This document shows, piece by piece, positions 12,001-27,900 of a stretch of DNA of 64,000 nt. This DNA is from Zootoca vivipara. Lineage: Eukaryota. Position numbers: made by a program. The stretch covers positions 53,692,001-53,756,000 of the forward strand of contig NC_083288.1 in NCBI RefSeq assembly GCF_963506605.1, read 5' to 3'. Each line of letters starts with the position of its first letter. The stretch's first letter is position 1.

Positions 12001-15000
12001 TCGCTGAGGGATGTGCTCCTCCAAGTTCAGCCTCTGTGGGCAATGCAAGTCCTCGGAGGCAGAAGCCCAAATACCCCCCTGGGGCCCTGTTCCTTTTCCT
12101 CCACATCCTCCTTCCAACGTCACCAAGGACGCTGGTATTCAAGGGGGTGGCAGCACCCCAGTCCTAAAGTGCGAGAGTAAGCAAGAAGAAGGCAGCTCTC
12201 TAGCCCCCCCCCCCGTCACTGCAGCTCCACTGCCTCTTCCTGGATCTGGGCCCCTGGGGACACATCCTGCGCAAATCCAGCGTGCGGCCAGACCCAGCGT
12301 CCTTCCTGTGGCCCCGTTGCCAGGCTTCTTCATGGCCGCTTCAACTGGGGCCGAGCAATCCGTCTCTGCAGCCGCAGTACACAGGGAGAGAATGAGAAAG
12401 CAGAAGAGTGAGGCAGAGTCAGTGGAAATGACACTCCATTTCCCCATGCCACCTAGAAACCTATCCTGTGCTTGCCGGCATCCCCCGCCCGTTGCTTCTC
12501 CCCCTAATCTGAAAGGCACACAATCTTCTTGTGTGTCCTCGTTTGGAATGGGCCTTGCAGCCTCCAGATCGGTTGTGCTTTCTTGCAAAACTGTGCCCCC
12601 ACCCCAAGCACCATCTTTTCTTGTACCGGCAGGGACGTGTCCACTTTGTCCAGGCGGGGTTGGAAGGAGCCCTTGTCTGTGGTGGAGCTGTCTTGCTCGC
12701 TGCTCATGCTGCTGTAAGGGTCTTCTGTGCAAAGGGCGAAGGAGGGAGAGGGAGCATATCAGTCATTTTTAAAGATTTGTTGGCCTCTTTCAAAAGGGCT
12801 TCCTCTTGCCCCAGCCCAGCCTCTCCACTTGCCCACCCAGACCTCTTCCAAGAAGGGAGGGAGCCACAGAGCCAGCTAGAACCTGCTTTATTTTTACAAA
12901 CTGCATCTTCAAAGCTCTGGCAAGCAAAGTGGTCTTCCCTGTTGTGATAATGCAGCCCGTAATCAGGGCTGACGCTCATCCTCCCGCTCAGGTGCCTAGC
13001 GCTCCCTCCCAGAGCACAGAGTACATGAGAACCCCCACATATTATTTATTCATTTATATTTCCCCCCTCCTCCTCCTGGATCAGGGCGGGTTGGGGTGGC
13101 AGAGCATGTAAAGCCCTTCTGTCTGATTGCAGTTTGGGGACGTGGCTGTGTTTGACCTCCCCTGTTGCTCTTCACTTCCCTTTCTTATTTCCTTATTTCT
13201 GCCCGTGGGGTGAAATGTTTCTGTGCAACTTGACCCCTTCTGCAACCCCAGACCACCTGTAATCCAATTAACCTGCTGCTTCCTTCCAGGGCAAGGCAAG
13301 GAACATCCTCTGGGATGGAGGCTGGCAGCTGCCGTGGAAACCCGGGCTTACCACCACCACCACCACCACTCGCAAGACCTCCCCTTCCTGACCTAGGCCT
13401 TGTGTCACATACCACCTGCTGCAGAGCTGCTGCTTTCCATTGCTGGGGCACTTGGATCAGGGCCTTCAGGACGAGCCACCCAGTCGGGCTCGTTTTCATA
13501 CCACCTCTCTTCATCGGGAGGCAAATGCATCAGCCTGGAAGTGGGAGACCAAGAGAGGCCATCAGGGCAAAGGTCTCTCCTTTGGCCCATTTCGAGGGCA
13601 GCTTCCAGTTAAAACAGCAGAGACTGACCGAGTTGACAAGACTTTGAGTGTGGGCTCAAAGTCTCCTCCTACCTGTGTCCTTTCTCCTTCCGGCAACAGC
13701 GCCTCCAGCAGAGAAGCACGGCCAAGACCAGGATGATCAGCAGCAGCGCCGCCAGGCCCAGGGCCACCCCCACGGCCACCCCCACCTTGCTGATGCCTTG
13801 CTCACAGCGGTGGCCCACGAACCAGTAGGACTCTGACTGCTCACAGCTGTGGGAGGAAAGGCAGCATCAAAAACCTGCAAGGAGGCAGGTAATGGGGCCC
13901 AGGATGCCTGGGTTTTTTACGGGGTGGGGAGCAGGGGGTGTTTCTGATGCTGCGTTACGGGGGGGGGGGGCTGAGTGGCATCCAGGGCCCTAATCCAAGG
14001 TAGGAGTGGTGGTGACTGGTGCCCATGGGGAATTGCACCAATTTTCGTTCCCCTGTGCCACAGCCCCAGATCCTTTGCCACCACCCACTTCACCCCCTGG
14101 CTTGCTACTCACTAGCAACTGGGCCCCCCAGGGGTGACATAGCAGTTTCCGTTCACACAGCTGAAGGGGTCGGGGTGCCAAACACTGCAGTTAGAGACAC
14201 ACTGGAGGTCGCCACTGACGTTTCGTGCCATGTAAAATTGCTGGATGTTTTGTGCCACCACAGAGGAGTTCTTGCACACACTTGACAGATCTGGAAAGGG
14301 AAAGGAAGGACACATTGGGGGCCCTGAATACCTCCCTTGTTCTTCCTCATCCTGCTTTCTTCCCCACCAACTATGATGGCGACTGATGGCCCTAGGATTA
14401 GCCTCTGTGCATCTCATATGTGACTGCACATGCAGAATCCTGGCAACATCTGTACCATCCAGCGGTGCCACAAGGTGTACGGGGGTTCATTGCATTTGTT
14501 TGCATGTGGTGGCCATGTTTTCTTGCTCATACGGCTCCACCGCCTCCATCCAGACAGCCCACTGCAGCTCTTCAACATTAGGAATGTGTTAAGCCCCACA
14601 CCGACCCCTCCCACCCCAGTCCTCACCTTCAGGGCTCAGGGGCACTGCAGTCACATTACGCTCTCCAGTAAACCAAAGTGAATCTGAAGGAGAGGGGGAA
14701 AGTAAAGGTGAGGGACATCCAAGGGGAGGGGGAGCACCCAAGGGGAAGGACCTCTTCCCCCACCCACCAGCCATGCCTCCCTGCCACCAGAGTTGAAGGA
14801 AACACACTTCCTCTGCTCGGCCATATGTCCAACCAGCAACCTGACACTCATCTCTGTGTGGGCAAGGGTGAAGCAGTTGGGGTTGGTTGATGTTACAGGG
14901 GCAGCTGCTGGTAACAGAGAGATGGGTCTGAACCCTCACCCCACAGCATGGATAACACCAGGATAACACCAGGTTGCGTCAGATTAGGCATAGATGAAAC

Positions 15001-24900: not shown

Positions 24901-27900
24901 GGATCCAACAATTTATATGCTCTACCACTGAAAGTGATTATTTCTAAGAATGTCCAGTGAAGGTGCAAGAGCAATAAAAATGATAAATTCAATTAGAATT
25001 TATCAGAAAATAAAAAAGTGTTGCCTAAAGTGCTTGCTGAAAGCAACAAAGCCTCTACAGGTGTCTGACGTTCAGTAAAGAAGAGGTCTCAGCCAAGAGA
25101 TAGTTCCACAGAACTGGGCCATAATTCTGAACACAGACCTCATGCGGGATGCCTAACGCATGGGGAACCACTTAGAGCCACTCCCACAAAGACGGGAGTG
25201 ATCTATCAGGGATATAACGCATCAAACGGTATTGAAGATTTTTTAAAGGCCTTACAAATTAATACAATAACTTTGTAGTTGGCCCAGTAGCATATGGGCT
25301 GCATGTGTAAACTGTTAAGCACTGGAATTATGTGCTGGGAGATAAACATCATTTCCATATGATTACACAGATACTTACCAGATGAAGTTCTAAGCTGTGA
25401 ATTAGTTGATGTGCGTCCACGAGTAGTGGTGGAAGGTGAAGATGCCTTGGCGGTGGATATTTTGGTAGTAGTATAAGCAAAAGGCGTTAATGTAGTGGGC
25501 AACAATGTTGGGGTCATTTCTGATATGCTAGTAGTAGAGTGTGTGGTTATGGTCTCAGTGATGGATGCAGATGATAATGTTGTATTGGAAGTGATTTGTG
25601 CAACAACAGTGGTAAAAGTCTCTGTACTTCTTTCAAGGGATGTTGATAAATGAGATGTTCCACTAGGAGCAATTTCAGTGCTAGCAGATCCATGATAGGT
25701 TGTGGAAGTTGTAAGCAGTGAGGAGCTCCCTTCTGGTGTACGGGAGTAATCAATTGTGGTGTTGGTGCTAGCAGATATCATGGCTGCAGTTGTCTCAGAT
25801 TGCTCAGAACTGGAAGTAAAAGGGGTGATGGATGAAATAGGTGTTGTGGTCTCACTAGTTGTGGTTGTAGTTTCAGAAGTCAGCACACTGGAGGAGGCAG
25901 ACATTGTTGACCGAGAAGAGAGCTGTTTTGTGGAGGGTTGCTCAGTGGTGGAAGAAATAGACATCACTGTGTACTCAGATGAGGTTTCTTGTTGTGTAGT
26001 CTGCTTCACGTGCTCAGTGGGTGTGTTTGTGCTTGAAGTCAGTGTGGGTGCAGTCGTCTCAGAAGGCTCAGAACTGGAAGTAAAAGGAGTCACGGATGGA
26101 GTGGGTGTCGTACTCTCAGTAGTAGTGCTTGTACTTTCAGAGGTCAACTCACTGGAGGATATGGACAATGTTGACTGAGAAGACACCTCTGTTGTGGATG
26201 ATTGTTCAGTGGTGGAAGAACTAGACATCATTGTGTACTCAGATGAGGTTCCTTGTGGTGTAGTCTGCTTGAAGTGCTCAGTGGGTGTGTTTGTTCTTGA
26301 AGTTAGTGTGGGTGCAGTAGTCTCAGAAGGCTCAGAACTGGAAGTAAAAGGAGTAATGGATGGAGTAGGTGTTGGACTCTCAGTAGTAGTGTGTGTAGTT
26401 TCAGAGGTCAACTCGATGGAGGAGGCAGACATTGTTGACTGAGAAGACAGCTGTTTTGTGGAGGGTTGCTCAGTGGGGGAAGAAATAGACATAACTGTGT
26501 ACTCAGATGAGGTTCCTTGTGGTGTAGTGTGCTTGAAGTGCTCAGTGGGTGTGTTGGTGCTTAAAGATAGGAAGGGTGCAGTCGTCTCAGAAGGCTCAGA
26601 ACTGGAAGTAAAAGGAGTAATGGATGGAGTAGGTGTCGTACTCTCAGTAGTAGTGCTTGTACTTTCAGAGGTCAACTCACTGGAGGATATGGACAATGTT
26701 GACTGAGAAGACACCTCTGTTGTGGATGATTGTTCAGGGGTGGAAGAACTAGACATCACTGTGTACTCAGATGAGGTTCCTTGTGGTGTAGTCTGCTTGA
26801 AGTGCTCAGTGGGTGTGTTTGTGCTTGAAGTTAGTGTGGGTGCAGTTGTCTCAGAAGGCTCAGAACTGGAAGTAAAAGGAGTAATGGATGGAGTAGGTTT
26901 CGTACTCACAGTAGTAGTGTTTGTAGTTTCAGAGGTCATCTCGATGGAGGAGGCAGACATTGTTGACTGAGAAGACAGCTCTTTTGTGGAGGGTTGCTCA
27001 GTGGTGGAAGAAATAGACATAACTGTGTACTCAGATGAGGTTTCTTGTGGTGTAGTGTGCTTGAAGTGCTCAGTGGGTGTGTTGGTGCTTAAAGATAGGA
27101 AGGGTGCAGTCGTCTCAGAAGGCTCAGAACTGGAAGTAAAAGGAGTCATGGATGGAGTGGGTGTTGTACTCTCAGTAGTAGTGCTTGTAGTTTCAGAGGT
27201 CACCTCACTGGAGGATGTGGACAATGTTGACTGAGAAGACACCTCTGTTGTGGAGGGTTGCTCAGTGGTGGAAGAACTAGACATCACTGTGTACTCAGAT
27301 GAGGTTCCTTGTGGTGTAGTTTGCTTCACGTGCTCAGTGGGTGTGTTTGTGTTAGAAGTTAGTGTAGGTGCAGTTGTCTCAGAAGGCTGAGAACTGGAAG
27401 TAAAAGGAGTCACGGATGGAGTGGGTGTTGTACTCTCAGTAGTAGTGCTTGTACTTTCAGAGATCAACTCACTGGAGGATATGGACAATGTTGACTGAGA
27501 AGACACCTCTGTTGTGGAGGGTTGCTCAGTGGTGGAAGAACTAGACATCACTGTGTACTCAGATGAGGTTCCTTGTGGTGTAGTCTGCTTGAAGTGCTCA
27601 GTGGGTGTTTTGGTGCTTGAAGTTAGTGTGGGTGCAGTTGTCTCAGAAGGCTTGGAACTCGAAGTAAAAGGAGTCACGGATGGAGTGGGTGTTGTTCTCT
27701 CAGTAGTAGTGCTTGTACTTTCAGAGATCAACTTACTGGAGGATATGGACAATGTTGACTGAGAAGACACCTCTGTTGTAGAGGGTTGCTCAGTGGTGGA
27801 AGAACTAGACATCTCTGTGTACTCAGATGAGGTTCCTTGTGGTGTCGTCTGCTTCACGTGCTCAGTGGGTGTGTTTGTGCTTGAAGTTAGTGTGGGTGCG

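What the first reader, a model, noticed from the sequence alone, without database searches (positions are those of the whole stretch)
13846..25379. Exon phases allow module swapping: A+B, A-only, B-only or chimeric isoforms
Seen: the PTS donor (25379, phase 1) is compatible with both EGF1 acceptors (24829, 19849). The module A Cys-rich donor (21031, phase 2) is compatible with both the linker exon (20558) and the TM exon (13846). Every paralogous exon pair shares phases. Inference: one locus could make single-SEA mucins of two flavours, the double-SEA form or A/B chimeras. Read-through at 21031 hits TGA immediately (TGC CAG TGA), which would give a secreted form.
Basis: inference. Interest (0 to 1): 0.7.

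Follow-up and report, generated by a model that had tools for sequence, protein, structure and literature searches.

The report
Lizard gut-type mucin with doubled EGF-SEA cassette
A lizard membrane mucin gene carries an old internal duplication of its EGF-SEA cassette, so the matching exon phases are inherited from that duplication and do not by themselves show module swapping.

Summary
The region is the 3' part of one minus-strand gene. It is a MUC3/12/17-type membrane mucin of Zootoca vivipara or a very near relative, not human.

A seven-exon cassette (PTS tail, EGF1, four SEA exons, first part of EGF2) has been duplicated in tandem. The copies are 70-84% identical, introns included. Paralogous exons therefore share phases by descent. 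Phase compatibility is also common here: 35 of 91 non-adjacent donor/acceptor pairs fit.

The "immediate TGA" is generic too. All 5 phase-2 donors hit a stop within 0-1 residues on read-through.

The public Zootoca model (847 aa) follows the linear A-linker-B-TM path with two SEA domains. So does an unnamed squamate protein, P0019. A Lacerta agilis model ends exactly at the read-through stop after module A. That is the only hint of an A-only secreted form.

No B-only or spliced chimeric model was found. No transcript data could be consulted. The real point of interest is the double-SEA architecture.

The parts
57251..57311 (-). Exon 1: ATG and signal-peptide-like MGVSLFALCLWTGLIMASTE, donor phase 1
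   Evidence: The same N-terminus opens the L. agilis model P0002.
25379..46396 (-). Single giant PTS exon, 21018 nt and about 7005 codons. It holds about 78 copies of a 264-nt (88-aa) Ser/Thr/Pro-rich repeat. Acceptor and donor are both phase 1.
   Evidence: ORF; tandem repeats; strong GC skew; boundaries.
24704..24829 (-). A1: EGF1 of module A (126 nt, phase 1-1)
   Evidence: Pfam EGF families E 5e-6 to 3e-2. Exact match to P0001 197-237.
23269..23387 (-). A2: SEA exon 1 of module A (119 nt, phase 1-0)
   Evidence: Pfam SEA E 8.5e-4 for this exon alone. Exact match in P0001.
22376..22434 (-). A3: SEA exon 2 of module A (59 nt, phase 0-2)
22030..22160 (-). A4: SEA exon 3 of module A (131 nt, phase 2-1). 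It starts with the candidate self-cleavage site (S)NG|SVIVDHEV.
   Evidence: The motif lies in the turn between two predicted strands.
21382..21441 (-). A5: SEA exon 4 of module A (60 nt, phase 1-1)
21031..21208 (-). A6: Cys-rich exon of module A (178 nt, phase 1-2). It ends one codon before the second Cys of the CxC motif of EGF2. Read-through gives Q then TGA.
   Evidence: 100% match to P0001.
20666..20952 (-). Interspersed repeat filling most of the 472-nt intron between A6 and the linker exon
   Evidence: 87.8% identical over 288 nt to 59597-59883 on the other strand.
20599..20604 (-). ATTAAA followed by an A run, 40 nt upstream of the linker acceptor. It is the only AATAAA or ATTAAA signal in that intron.
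   Evidence: No AATAAA in the intron. Its use is not shown.
20374..20558 (-). Linker exon (185 nt, phase 2-1). It is a Ser/Thr/Pro-rich copy of the 3' tail of the PTS exon. Its acceptor has no counterpart in the parent copy.
   Evidence: It matches P0001 421-480 with 3 amino-acid differences. Predicted disordered.
19724..19849 (-). B1: EGF1 of module B (126 nt, phase 1-1)
16498..16616 (-). B2: SEA exon 1 of module B (119 nt), 96.6% nucleotide identity to A2
15906..15964 (-). B3: SEA exon 2 of module B (59 nt)
15600..15730 (-). B4: SEA exon 3 of module B (131 nt), with the same NG|SVIVDHEV
14627..14683 (-). B5: SEA exon 4 of module B (57 nt, one codon shorter than A5)
14113..14290 (-). B6: Cys-rich exon of module B (178 nt, phase 1-2), 59% amino-acid identity to A6. 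Read-through gives TAG at once.
13673..13846 (-). Exon holding the end of EGF2 (CEQSESYWFVGHRCE), the transmembrane helix and the RRCCRK stop-transfer stretch. Acceptor phase 2.
   Evidence: 17 squamate mucin-3/17-like hits. Helix 725-755 in the model.
13416..13534 (-). Cytoplasmic tail exon 1
   Evidence: exact match in P0001.
12627..12724 (-). Cytoplasmic tail exon 2
12330..12365 (-). Last coding exon part (RRIARPQLKRP and stop)
11304..11309 (-). AATAAA about 1 kb past the stop, a candidate poly(A) signal for the gene
   Evidence: Use not shown.

Best explanation
The interval is the 3' part of one membrane mucin gene on the minus strand. The gene runs from exon 1 at 57.3 kb to the stop at 12.33 kb. 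Summed exon lengths give 7677 codons.

**What happened (inferred).** A segment was duplicated in tandem inside the gene long ago. It ran from the last 100-180 nt of the giant PTS exon to just past the Cys-rich exon. The duplicated PTS tail gained an in-frame 3' splice site and became a short linker exon.

**Resulting default mRNA.** PTS, EGF1-SEA-(EGF2 cut after its fourth Cys), linker, EGF1-SEA-EGF2, TM, tail.

**Why the phases match.**
- Both copies keep their parent's splice sites, so every paralogous pair has the same phase.
- Each unit is a multiple of three: 858 and 855 nt.
- In-frame skipping of either unit is therefore automatic. It is not a designed property.

**Likely function.** The main product is the linear double-SEA mucin. 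Both SEA modules carry the G|S cleavage motif, so the mature protein may consist of three non-covalently held chains with two force-sensitive joints. Single-module or secreted forms may exist as minor products.

**Shown versus inferred.**
- Shown: exon structure, duplication, intact reading frames, public linear models, two SEA folds.
- Inferred: constitutive inclusion, self-cleavage, function.
For: **Duplication.** blastn of A against B gives collinear blocks, A 25488..21007 against B 20483..14088, at 69.5-83.7% identity with introns included. Aligned exon columns are 80.2% identical (888 columns) and aligned intron columns 81.3% (1660 columns).

**Both copies are kept as coding sequence.**
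- All 12 module exons are open and GT-AG.
- The copies differ at 104 of 657 coding nucleotides yet carry no stop codon. Random substitution leaves the frame open in 759 of 20000 trials if all changes fell on one copy, and in 3244 of 20000 if half did.
- Aligned introns show 26 gap events in 1683 columns. That predicts about 10 in the exons, where there is a single 3-nt gap (by my own arithmetic the Poisson P is about 5e-4).
- dN/dS between A and B is 0.58.

**Linear path.**
- 15 of 18 exon translations are exact substrings of P0001, 'mucin-3B-like [Zootoca vivipara]'. They lie in the order A1-A6, linker, B1-B6, TM, tail. The linker and TM exons differ from P0001 by 3 and 1 residues, and the last linker residue was left outside the local alignment.
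- P0001 and the unnamed squamate protein P0019 each have two Pfam SEA stretches (77.4 and 68.8 bits, cut-off 26.4).
- In P0019 the linker follows the same C-x position.

**Age.** The A-type Cys-rich region of Zootoca groups with that of L. agilis (support 100/97).

**Fold.**
- The AlphaFold model of P0001 gives two beta-alpha-beta-beta-alpha-beta modules. The 10-residue blocks mostly average pLDDT 61-85 in A and 59-90 in B. G299-S300 and G585-S586 lie in the strand-strand turn, and the linker is disordered.
- The best PDB fold matches are SEA domains (TMPRSS6, MUC16 SEA5, 2e7v).

**Splice sites and phases.**
- All 15 donors from PTS to TM match 7-8 of 9 consensus positions. The 14 cassette, linker and TM acceptors have pyrimidine fractions of 0.71-1.00.
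- 35 of 91 non-adjacent junctions are compatible.
- 5 of 5 phase-2 donors give an immediate stop on read-through.
Against: - No transcript evidence was available, so constitutive inclusion is an inference from splice-site quality and from computed public models. I could not see what RNA support those models have.
- In L. agilis the locus is annotated as two models. P0002 ends at the read-through stop after module A. P0003 starts inside module B on the same contig. This may mean that transcripts really end after module A there.
- Exons are no better conserved between A and B than introns are, and dN/dS is only moderately below 1. Selection on one module's sequence may therefore be weak.
- AU tests could not tell one old duplication from independent ones (p = 0.11, 0.38, 0.33).
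- The SEA motif is G|SVIV, not the published G|S[V/I]VV, and cleavage is untested.
Confidence: 0.75

Rival explanations
1. Secreted A-only isoform. Some transcripts keep the A6-linker intron and are cleaved and polyadenylated inside it. They would give a mucin that ends ...GPQCQ after module A, with no membrane anchor. This can coexist with the linear form.
For: - Read-through gives Q then TGA.
- The L. agilis model P0002 ends '...GPKCQ' at exactly this point.
- An ATTAAA with an A run lies at 20604 in the intron.
- Reviews state that many membrane mucins have secreted splice forms lacking the TM domain (PMC6128383 and PMC2409950; passages read).
Against: - An immediate stop is generic to all 5 phase-2 donors.
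- There is no AATAAA in the intron, and the single ATTAAA sits only 40 nt before a strong acceptor.
- The A6 donor is good (7 of 9 positions, GTGAGT).
- P0002 is a computed model that also drops nearly the whole PTS exon, so it may be a fragment of a split annotation. P0003 lies on the same contig.
- Without intronic polyadenylation, the retained-intron mRNA would carry a premature stop far upstream of later junctions and should be degraded (established knowledge of nonsense-mediated decay).
Confidence: 0.2
2. Regulated module choice. The cell picks A only (21031>13846), B only (25379>19849), A+B or A/B chimeras, in a tissue-specific way.
For: - All these junctions are in frame.
- A6 joined to the TM exon would restore a complete six-Cys EGF2 with His as the split codon (read from the sequence; not built).
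- Both modules are maintained as open frames.
Against: - Compatibility follows from the duplication and is near chance level gene-wide (35 of 91).
- Each choice needs seven strong consecutive exons to be skipped.
- No inverted repeat of 40 nt or more for competing RNA pairing lies in 11000-26000.
- All cassette introns are GT-AG and 173-3107 nt long, so there is no steric or spliceosome-type incompatibility.
- No such protein was found among the named hits, nor in the one unnamed hit that I read (P0019).
- The linker exon, which is used only in the linear path, is open. It sits at the same junction in P0019.
- The mosaic in L. agilis switches inside the SEA3 exon, so it arose at the DNA level.
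Confidence: 0.08
3. Artefact or decay. The second module is an assembly false duplication, or one module is a set of dead pseudo-exons.
For: - Tandem repeats near giant PTS exons are often misassembled (general knowledge).
- Exon identity between A and B is no higher than intron identity.
Against: - The copies differ by 16-30%, with different intron sizes and different repeat insertions. This is far beyond haplotype or assembly duplication.
- P0001, which differs from the window at about 4 residues and so probably comes from another individual or assembly, shows the same structure.
- A-type and B-type sequences both occur in L. agilis, and B-type also in Podarcis.
- There are no stops or frameshifts and all splice sites are intact.
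Confidence: 0.03

Closest known systems
Mammalian MUC3A / MUC3B / MUC12 / MUC17 (membrane mucin cluster, human 7q22)
   Same: - One giant PTS exon with tandem repeats.
- A juxtamembrane SEA domain flanked by EGF-like domains, then a TM helix and a cytoplasmic tail spread over small exons.
- A G|S cleavage motif.
- A TRIM56-like gene just downstream in the same orientation.

Sources: plus passages of PMC9578598 and PMC13643018. NCBI names the lizard models mucin-3A, -3B-like and -17-like.
   Different: - The EGF1-SEA-EGF2 cassette is present twice.
- The first EGF2 is cut after its fourth Cys and followed by a 61-residue PTS linker.
- The motif is G|SVIV.
- The tail ends ...QLKRP, without the class I PDZ-binding end described for the human cluster.
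- Which mammalian member is the orthologue is not resolved.
MUC16 (CA125)
   Same: A mucin with several SEA domains in series, separated by Ser/Thr-rich linkers. Lang et al. [quoted passage not shown] MUC16 SEA5 is among the best fold matches.
   Different: - MUC16 repeats have no EGF modules.
- Only 12-20% identity in the fold alignment.
- No sequence-level PDB hit for P0001.
- Here there are two copies, not many.
- The family is the MUC3 type by TM and tail sequence and by gene neighbourhood.
IMPG1 / IMPG2 (interphotoreceptor matrix proteoglycans)
   Same: Proteins with two SEA domains, with proteolysis in a SEA domain (PMC9478142; search listing and start of abstract only).
   Different: Not mucins of the gut type. 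No homology was tested here. They are named only as another two-SEA architecture.
Secreted splice variants of membrane mucins
   Same: TM-less secreted forms made by alternative mRNA processing are described for several membrane mucins (passages of PMC6128383, PMC2409950 and PMC3056801). Specific reports for MUC3 and MUC17 are recalled only and were not seen.
   Different: Here such a form is only a possibility, backed by one computed model in another species (P0002).
Public models P0001 (mucin-3B-like, Zootoca vivipara, 847 aa) and P0019 (unnamed record, 1090 aa)
   Same: P0001 is this gene's own 3' part. P0019 has the same PTS, EGF-SEA-half EGF, linker, EGF-SEA-EGF, TM layout.
   Different: P0001 starts at an internal Met of the PTS exon, so it is a partial model: 847 against 7677 codons. 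P0019 is about 52% identical and its two SEA modules are nearly identical to each other.

Membership tests
MUC3/12/17-type SEA membrane mucin | Large PTS domain with tandem repeats encoded by a single exon | tested here: met
   An open frame runs 46415-25206, of which the exon is 46396-25379. It holds 264-nt repeats in 63.5 + 14.1 copies at 89-90% matches.
MUC3/12/17-type SEA membrane mucin | Juxtamembrane SEA domain flanked by EGF-like domains, then a TM helix and a cytoplasmic tail | tested here: met
   Pfam SEA and EGF hits exon by exon and on P0001. TM helix 725-755 and two SEA folds in the model. The cassette is present twice, which the family description does not include.
MUC3/12/17-type SEA membrane mucin | SEA self-cleavage motif G|S[V/I]VV (PMC13643018, passage) | tested here: inconclusive
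   Both modules read G|SVIV, with one conservative difference at the third position. The motif lies in the strand-strand turn. Cleavage itself cannot be tested here.
MUC3/12/17-type SEA membrane mucin | Position in the cluster next to TRIM56 (PMC13643018) | tested here: inconclusive
   A RING + B-box ORF lies at 979..2, same strand, downstream. Among solved chains the TRIM56 RING gives 112 bits over 84 residues and a second TRIM56 piece also matches. TRIM3 scores equally overall. The ACHE side is not in the window.
MUC3/12/17-type SEA membrane mucin | C-terminal class I PDZ-binding motif (PMC9578598) | tested here: not met
   The tail ends ...RPQLKRP. Other squamate models end ...VTRL...VTQL or ...ITQL. 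This feature defines the human cluster and may not define the wider family.
SEA domain (Pfam PF01390) | Profile match above the curated cut-off, and the alpha/beta sandwich fold | tested here: met
   P0001 scores 77.4 bits in two stretches, cut-off 26.4. Fold matches to SEA structures have E 3e-5 to 3e-3. Single exons alone score 19.9 bits, below the cut-off.
MUC16-type multi-SEA mucin | Many tandem SEA repeat units without EGF modules; SEA of the MUC16 subtype | tested here: not met
   Two units, each with EGF modules. No sequence-level PDB match for P0001. Only a fold-level match at 12-20% identity.
Regulated cassette or mutually exclusive exon system | Transcripts that use the alternative junctions | not testable with these tools
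   There is no read or cDNA collection for this organism. Protein searches found only the linear model and one A-only model in another species.
Regulated cassette or mutually exclusive exon system | A mechanism that enforces choice: competing RNA pairing, incompatible splice-site types, or introns too short | tested here: not met
   No inverted repeat of 40 nt or more in 11000-26000. All cassette introns are GT-AG and 173-3107 nt long.

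The most novel reading that the evidence does not exclude
The doubled cassette makes a three-chain mucin with two self-cleaved SEA joints in series. These would act as two mechanical fuses, with a roughly 285-residue middle piece held only non-covalently. The locus would also release an A-only secreted mucin by intronic polyadenylation after 21031. This architecture would have been kept across distant squamates since one ancient duplication, with gene conversion homogenising the SEA parts.
Probability: 0.15. Interest if true: 0.55.

Novelty: new variant of a known kind. 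Interest (0 to 1): 0.3.

Why it matters
SEA domains of membrane mucins are thought to act as force-sensitive breaking points that protect the cell membrane (passages of PMC9578598 and PMC13643018).

A MUC3-type mucin with two such modules in series is a natural experiment on that idea. It would have two possible break points and a detachable middle piece.

I found no description of this architecture for the MUC3 family in the searched library. [quoted passage not shown]

For genome annotation, the case is a caution. Phase-compatible paralogous exons are what any in-frame tandem duplication leaves behind. They should not be read as evidence for alternative splicing.

Tried and rejected
- **Size limit.** One search was over the size limit. 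I reread the region in two parts.
- **Unnamed hits.**
  - P0030 (1501 aa, two stretches, 46.8 bits) could be a second double-module protein, but its origin could not be excluded as human, so I did not read or analyse it.
  - The other unnamed hits were likewise not read or analysed.
  - P0019 is the exception: its score places it among squamates.
- **Sequence searches without result.**
  - P0001 against the PDB by sequence gave 0 hits.
  - P0001 against NCBIfam gave nothing.
- **Age of the duplication.** The trees of the 58-residue Cys-rich region are mostly unresolved (1 of 10 inner branches starred). AU tests for one old against independent duplications were inconclusive.
- **Atlas search.** For the downstream ORF it gave only generic RING/B-box clusters.
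- **Other strand and other ORFs.** Six ORFs in and near the interval had no Pfam family. No tRNA genes were found.
- **Assembly artefact.** Rejected on divergence and on independent models.
- **Left out on purpose.** Searches were run exon by exon or with the public proteins. So the fold of an A6+TM chimeric EGF2 was not tested.
  - Genome contigs holds only bacteria and archaea.
  - No other lizard locus could therefore be fetched.
- **Supplements.** Supplementary files of papers were not consulted.

Full report
**What is in the sequence**

The interval lies in a gene on the minus strand. I reread 11500-25600 and translated each proposed exon in its frame. Every coordinate in the finding holds.

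| Site | Position | Sequence | Phase |
|---|---|---|---|
| PTS exon end | 25379 | CTG\|gtaagt | 1 |
| EGF1 exon starts | 24829 and 19849 | after pyrimidine tract and AG | 1 |
| Module A Cys-rich exon end | 21031 | CCA\|gtgagt | 2 |
| Linker exon start | 20558 | | 2 |
| TM exon start | 13846 | | 2 |

- The six paralogous exon pairs have the same phases.
- Five pairs have the same lengths: 126, 119, 59, 131 and 178 nt. The sixth is 60 vs 57 nt.
- All module, linker and TM-exon introns are GT-AG.
- Read-through at 21031 reads Q then TGA.
- The window has no N.

**The whole gene**

- Exon 1 (57311-57251) encodes a signal-peptide-like start.
- Intron 1 holds a LINE with endonuclease and reverse-transcriptase frames.
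- The PTS exon runs 46396-25379, 21018 nt. It holds about 78 copies of a 264-nt repeat.
- Then come modules A and B, the TM exon and three tail exons, to the stop at 12330.
- Summed exon lengths give 23031 nt, or 7677 codons.

**Organism and public models**

I searched exon by exon.

- The A6 exon matches 'mucin-3B-like [Zootoca vivipara]' (P0001, 847 aa) at 100%.
- 15 of 18 exon translations are exact substrings of P0001. They lie in the order A1-A6, linker, B1-B6, TM, tail.
- The linker and TM exons differ from P0001 by 3 and 1 residues. The last linker residue was left outside the local alignment.
- The window is therefore Zootoca vivipara or a very near relative. It is not human.
- P0001 starts at an internal Met of the PTS exon, so it is a partial model.
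- It follows the linear path A, linker, B, TM and has two Pfam SEA stretches.

**It is a tandem duplication**

- blastn of the A region against the B region gives collinear blocks: A 25488..21007 against B 20483..14088. Identity is 69.5-83.7% and introns are included.
- The unit starts inside the PTS exon and ends 24 nt past the Cys-rich donor.
- The copied PTS tail is now the linker exon. Its acceptor at 20558 has no counterpart in the parent copy and had to fall in phase 2 for the gene to stay open. That is the one non-trivial phase in the finding, and it speaks for selection on the linear form.
- Most of the 472-nt intron before the linker is an interspersed repeat.

**Why the phases carry no extra information**

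- Copies keep the splice sites of their parent.
- The two units are 858 and 855 nt, so skipping either is in frame by construction.
- Across the exons from PTS to TM, 35 of 91 non-adjacent forward donor/acceptor pairs are compatible, close to one third.
- Eight of the 14 introns are phase 1. By recall, this is usual for extracellular modules.
- All 5 of 5 phase-2 donors give a stop after 0-1 residues on read-through, because GTGAGT or GTAGGA in that phase reads TGA or TAG. The TGA at 21031 is therefore not a special device.

**Are both modules alive?**

- A and B differ at 104 of 657 coding nucleotides.
- dS is 0.27, dN is 0.155 and dN/dS is 0.58.
- Divergence is uneven. The SEA1 exon is 96.6% identical and the Cys-rich exon 73%.
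- Exon columns (80.2% of 888) are no better conserved than alignable intron columns (81.3% of 1660). This counts against strong constraint on the sequence.
- The frames, however, are kept.
  - Random substitution leaves no stop in only 759 of 20000 trials (all changes on one copy), or 3244 of 20000 (half).
  - Introns show 26 gap events per 1683 aligned columns, while the exons show a single 3-nt gap. About 10 would be expected, and by my arithmetic the Poisson P is about 5e-4.
- Both modules are thus maintained as coding exons. This fits the linear form, but it would also fit alternative use.

**Relatives**

- *TM exon search.* It finds 17 proteins, of which 14 are named squamate models called mucin-3A, -3B-like, -17-like and similar.
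- *Cys-rich profile search.* It finds 48 proteins at E ≤ 0.001 in the exhaustive search.
  - 43 have one matched stretch.
  - 3 have 7-19 short stretches.
  - 2 have two stretches: P0019 and P0030.
- *P0019.* This unnamed 1090-aa protein is about 52% identical to P0001. It has the same layout, with the linker following the same C-x position.
- *P0030.* It was not examined because a human origin could not be excluded.
- *Single-stretch models.* Those I read are short partial models, often truncated at the N-terminus. They do not show that other species have only one module.
- *Concerted evolution.* In P0019 the two SEA parts are nearly identical (clade 100/99) while the Cys-rich parts are far apart. 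Zootoca shows a milder form of the same pattern. This suggests gene conversion over EGF1-SEA.
- *Gene conversion in L. agilis.* The B-type model P0003 carries A-type residues from the middle of the SEA3 exon through SEA4. Zootoca B and Podarcis B agree with each other there. A switch inside an exon means conversion at the DNA level, not chimeric splicing.
- *Age.* The A-type Cys-rich region of Zootoca and L. agilis form a clade (100/97), so the duplication predates their split. Whether it is shared with P0019's lineage is open (AU p = 0.11, 0.38, 0.33).

**Evidence on alternative products**

- *For an A-only secreted form.*
  - L. agilis P0002 (269 aa) has the same signal peptide, a few PTS residues, EGF1, SEA and the A-type Cys-rich region. 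It ends '...GPKCQ', exactly at the read-through stop.
  - An ATTAAA with an A run lies at 20604.
- *Against it.*
  - P0002 is a computed model, and P0003 on the same contig looks like the other half of a split annotation.
  - There is no AATAAA in the intron.
  - The stop is generic.
- *B-only, A-to-TM or spliced chimeras.* No model was found. Caveats:
  - The word-indexed searches cover only proteins up to 2000 aa.
  - Most hits were unnamed and were not read.
  - Cluster members could not be listed.
- *Splice sites and mechanism.*
  - All 15 donors from PTS to TM match 7-8 of 9 consensus positions. The 14 cassette, linker and TM acceptors have pyrimidine fractions of 0.71-1.00.
  - No inverted repeat of 40 nt or more lies in 11000-26000.

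**How it probably works**

- *Model quality.* The model of P0001 has mean pLDDT 54.6, dragged down by the PTS, linker and tail.
- *Two SEA-type modules.* It shows two beta-alpha-beta-beta-alpha-beta modules. The 10-residue blocks mostly average pLDDT 61-85 in A and 59-90 in B.
- *Cleavage motif and other parts.* G299-S300 and G585-S586 lie in the turn between the second and third strands. The linker is disordered and there is a TM helix.
- *Fold matches.* The best solved-structure matches are SEA domains; 4 matches have E ≤ 0.001.
- *Motif.* Both modules read NG|SVIVDHEV. The published motif is G|S[V/I]VV (PMC13643018, passage).
- *Consequence if both cleave (inference).* The mature mucin would be three chains held by two SEA interfaces.
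- *Disulfides.*
  - The intron after the Cys-rich exon splits the CxC motif of EGF2.
  - Module A therefore ends after the fourth Cys.
  - By the standard EGF pairing 1-3, 2-4, 5-6 (established knowledge), no cysteine within the EGF2 motif is left unpaired.
  - This may be why this breakpoint was tolerated.

**Comparison with what is known**

- The gene is of the MUC3/12/17 type by PTS exon, domain order, TM and tail sequence and names of relatives.
- It also has a TRIM56-like RING/B-box gene just downstream. The cluster position is described in PMC13643018.
- It differs in the doubled cassette and in lacking the PDZ-binding end.
- Lang et al. [quoted passage not shown]
- Searches for 'two SEA domains' + mucin found 3 papers, 2 of them listed, on MUC16 and IMPG.
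- A search for MUC17 + MUC12 + Anolis + SEA found 2 papers, 1 listed and unrelated.
- A search on reptile and evolution terms listed no description of a double-SEA MUC3-type mucin.
- Secreted splice forms of membrane mucins are described in reviews.

**Verdict**

It has one weak supporting model for the secreted form and none for swapping.
- The double-SEA architecture is a modestly new variant of a known mucin family.

Noticed in passing
window 2-979 (-): First coding exon of a RING + B-box TRIM gene, downstream of the mucin and on the same strand. It starts at the ATG at 979 and runs off the window. Among solved chains the TRIM56 RING is the best per-residue match (112 bits over 84 residues). 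This fits the MUC17-TRIM56 neighbourhood of mammals.
   Followed up: partly
window 48377-51885 (-), in intron 1 of the mucin: LINE-type retrotransposon with an endonuclease frame (400 aa) and a reverse-transcriptase frame (539 aa, RVT_1 E 5e-40). A second, fragmentary endonuclease frame lies at 5891-6631 (-).
   Followed up: partly
window 12330-12365 (-), and proteins P0003, P0004, P0006, P0009, P0010, P0019: The cytoplasmic tail ends ...RPQLKRP in Zootoca and L. agilis and ...QLKQP in Podarcis. Rhineura, Paroedura and Candoia end ...VTRL, ...VTQL and ...ITQL, a class I PDZ-type end. Lacertids seem to have lost the PDZ-binding end described for the human cluster.
   Followed up: partly
proteins P0002 and P0003 (Lacerta agilis) compared with window modules A and B: The L. 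agilis B-type module carries A-type residues from mid SEA3 exon through SEA4. This is a probable gene-conversion tract between the two modules. The locus is annotated there as two separate short models on one contig.
   Followed up: partly
window 20374-20558 and 13673-13846 (-): The amino-acid differences between the window and the public Zootoca model are 3 aligned mismatches in the linker exon, its unaligned last residue (A against S by eye), and 1 in the TM exon (K>S in RRCCRK). The other 15 exon translations tested are identical. The linker seems the most variable coding part.
   Followed up: no
window 20666-20952 (-) and 59597-59883 (+): Two copies of an interspersed repeat, 87.8% identical. 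One fills the intron between module A and the linker exon. The copy at 59.2-59.8 kb lies in a 199-aa open frame with no Pfam family.
   Followed up: partly
proteins P0004 and P0005 (Podarcis muralis): Two different Podarcis models both carry the TM exon but have different tails, and one combines an A-type SEA4 with a B-type Cys-rich region. Lacertids probably have more than one gene of this family, or further conversion mosaics.
   Followed up: no
window 46627-47415 (both strands): A G+C- and Pro-rich, low-complexity stretch just upstream of the PTS exon, with long open frames on both strands. Nature unknown, possibly a degenerate repeat.
   Followed up: no
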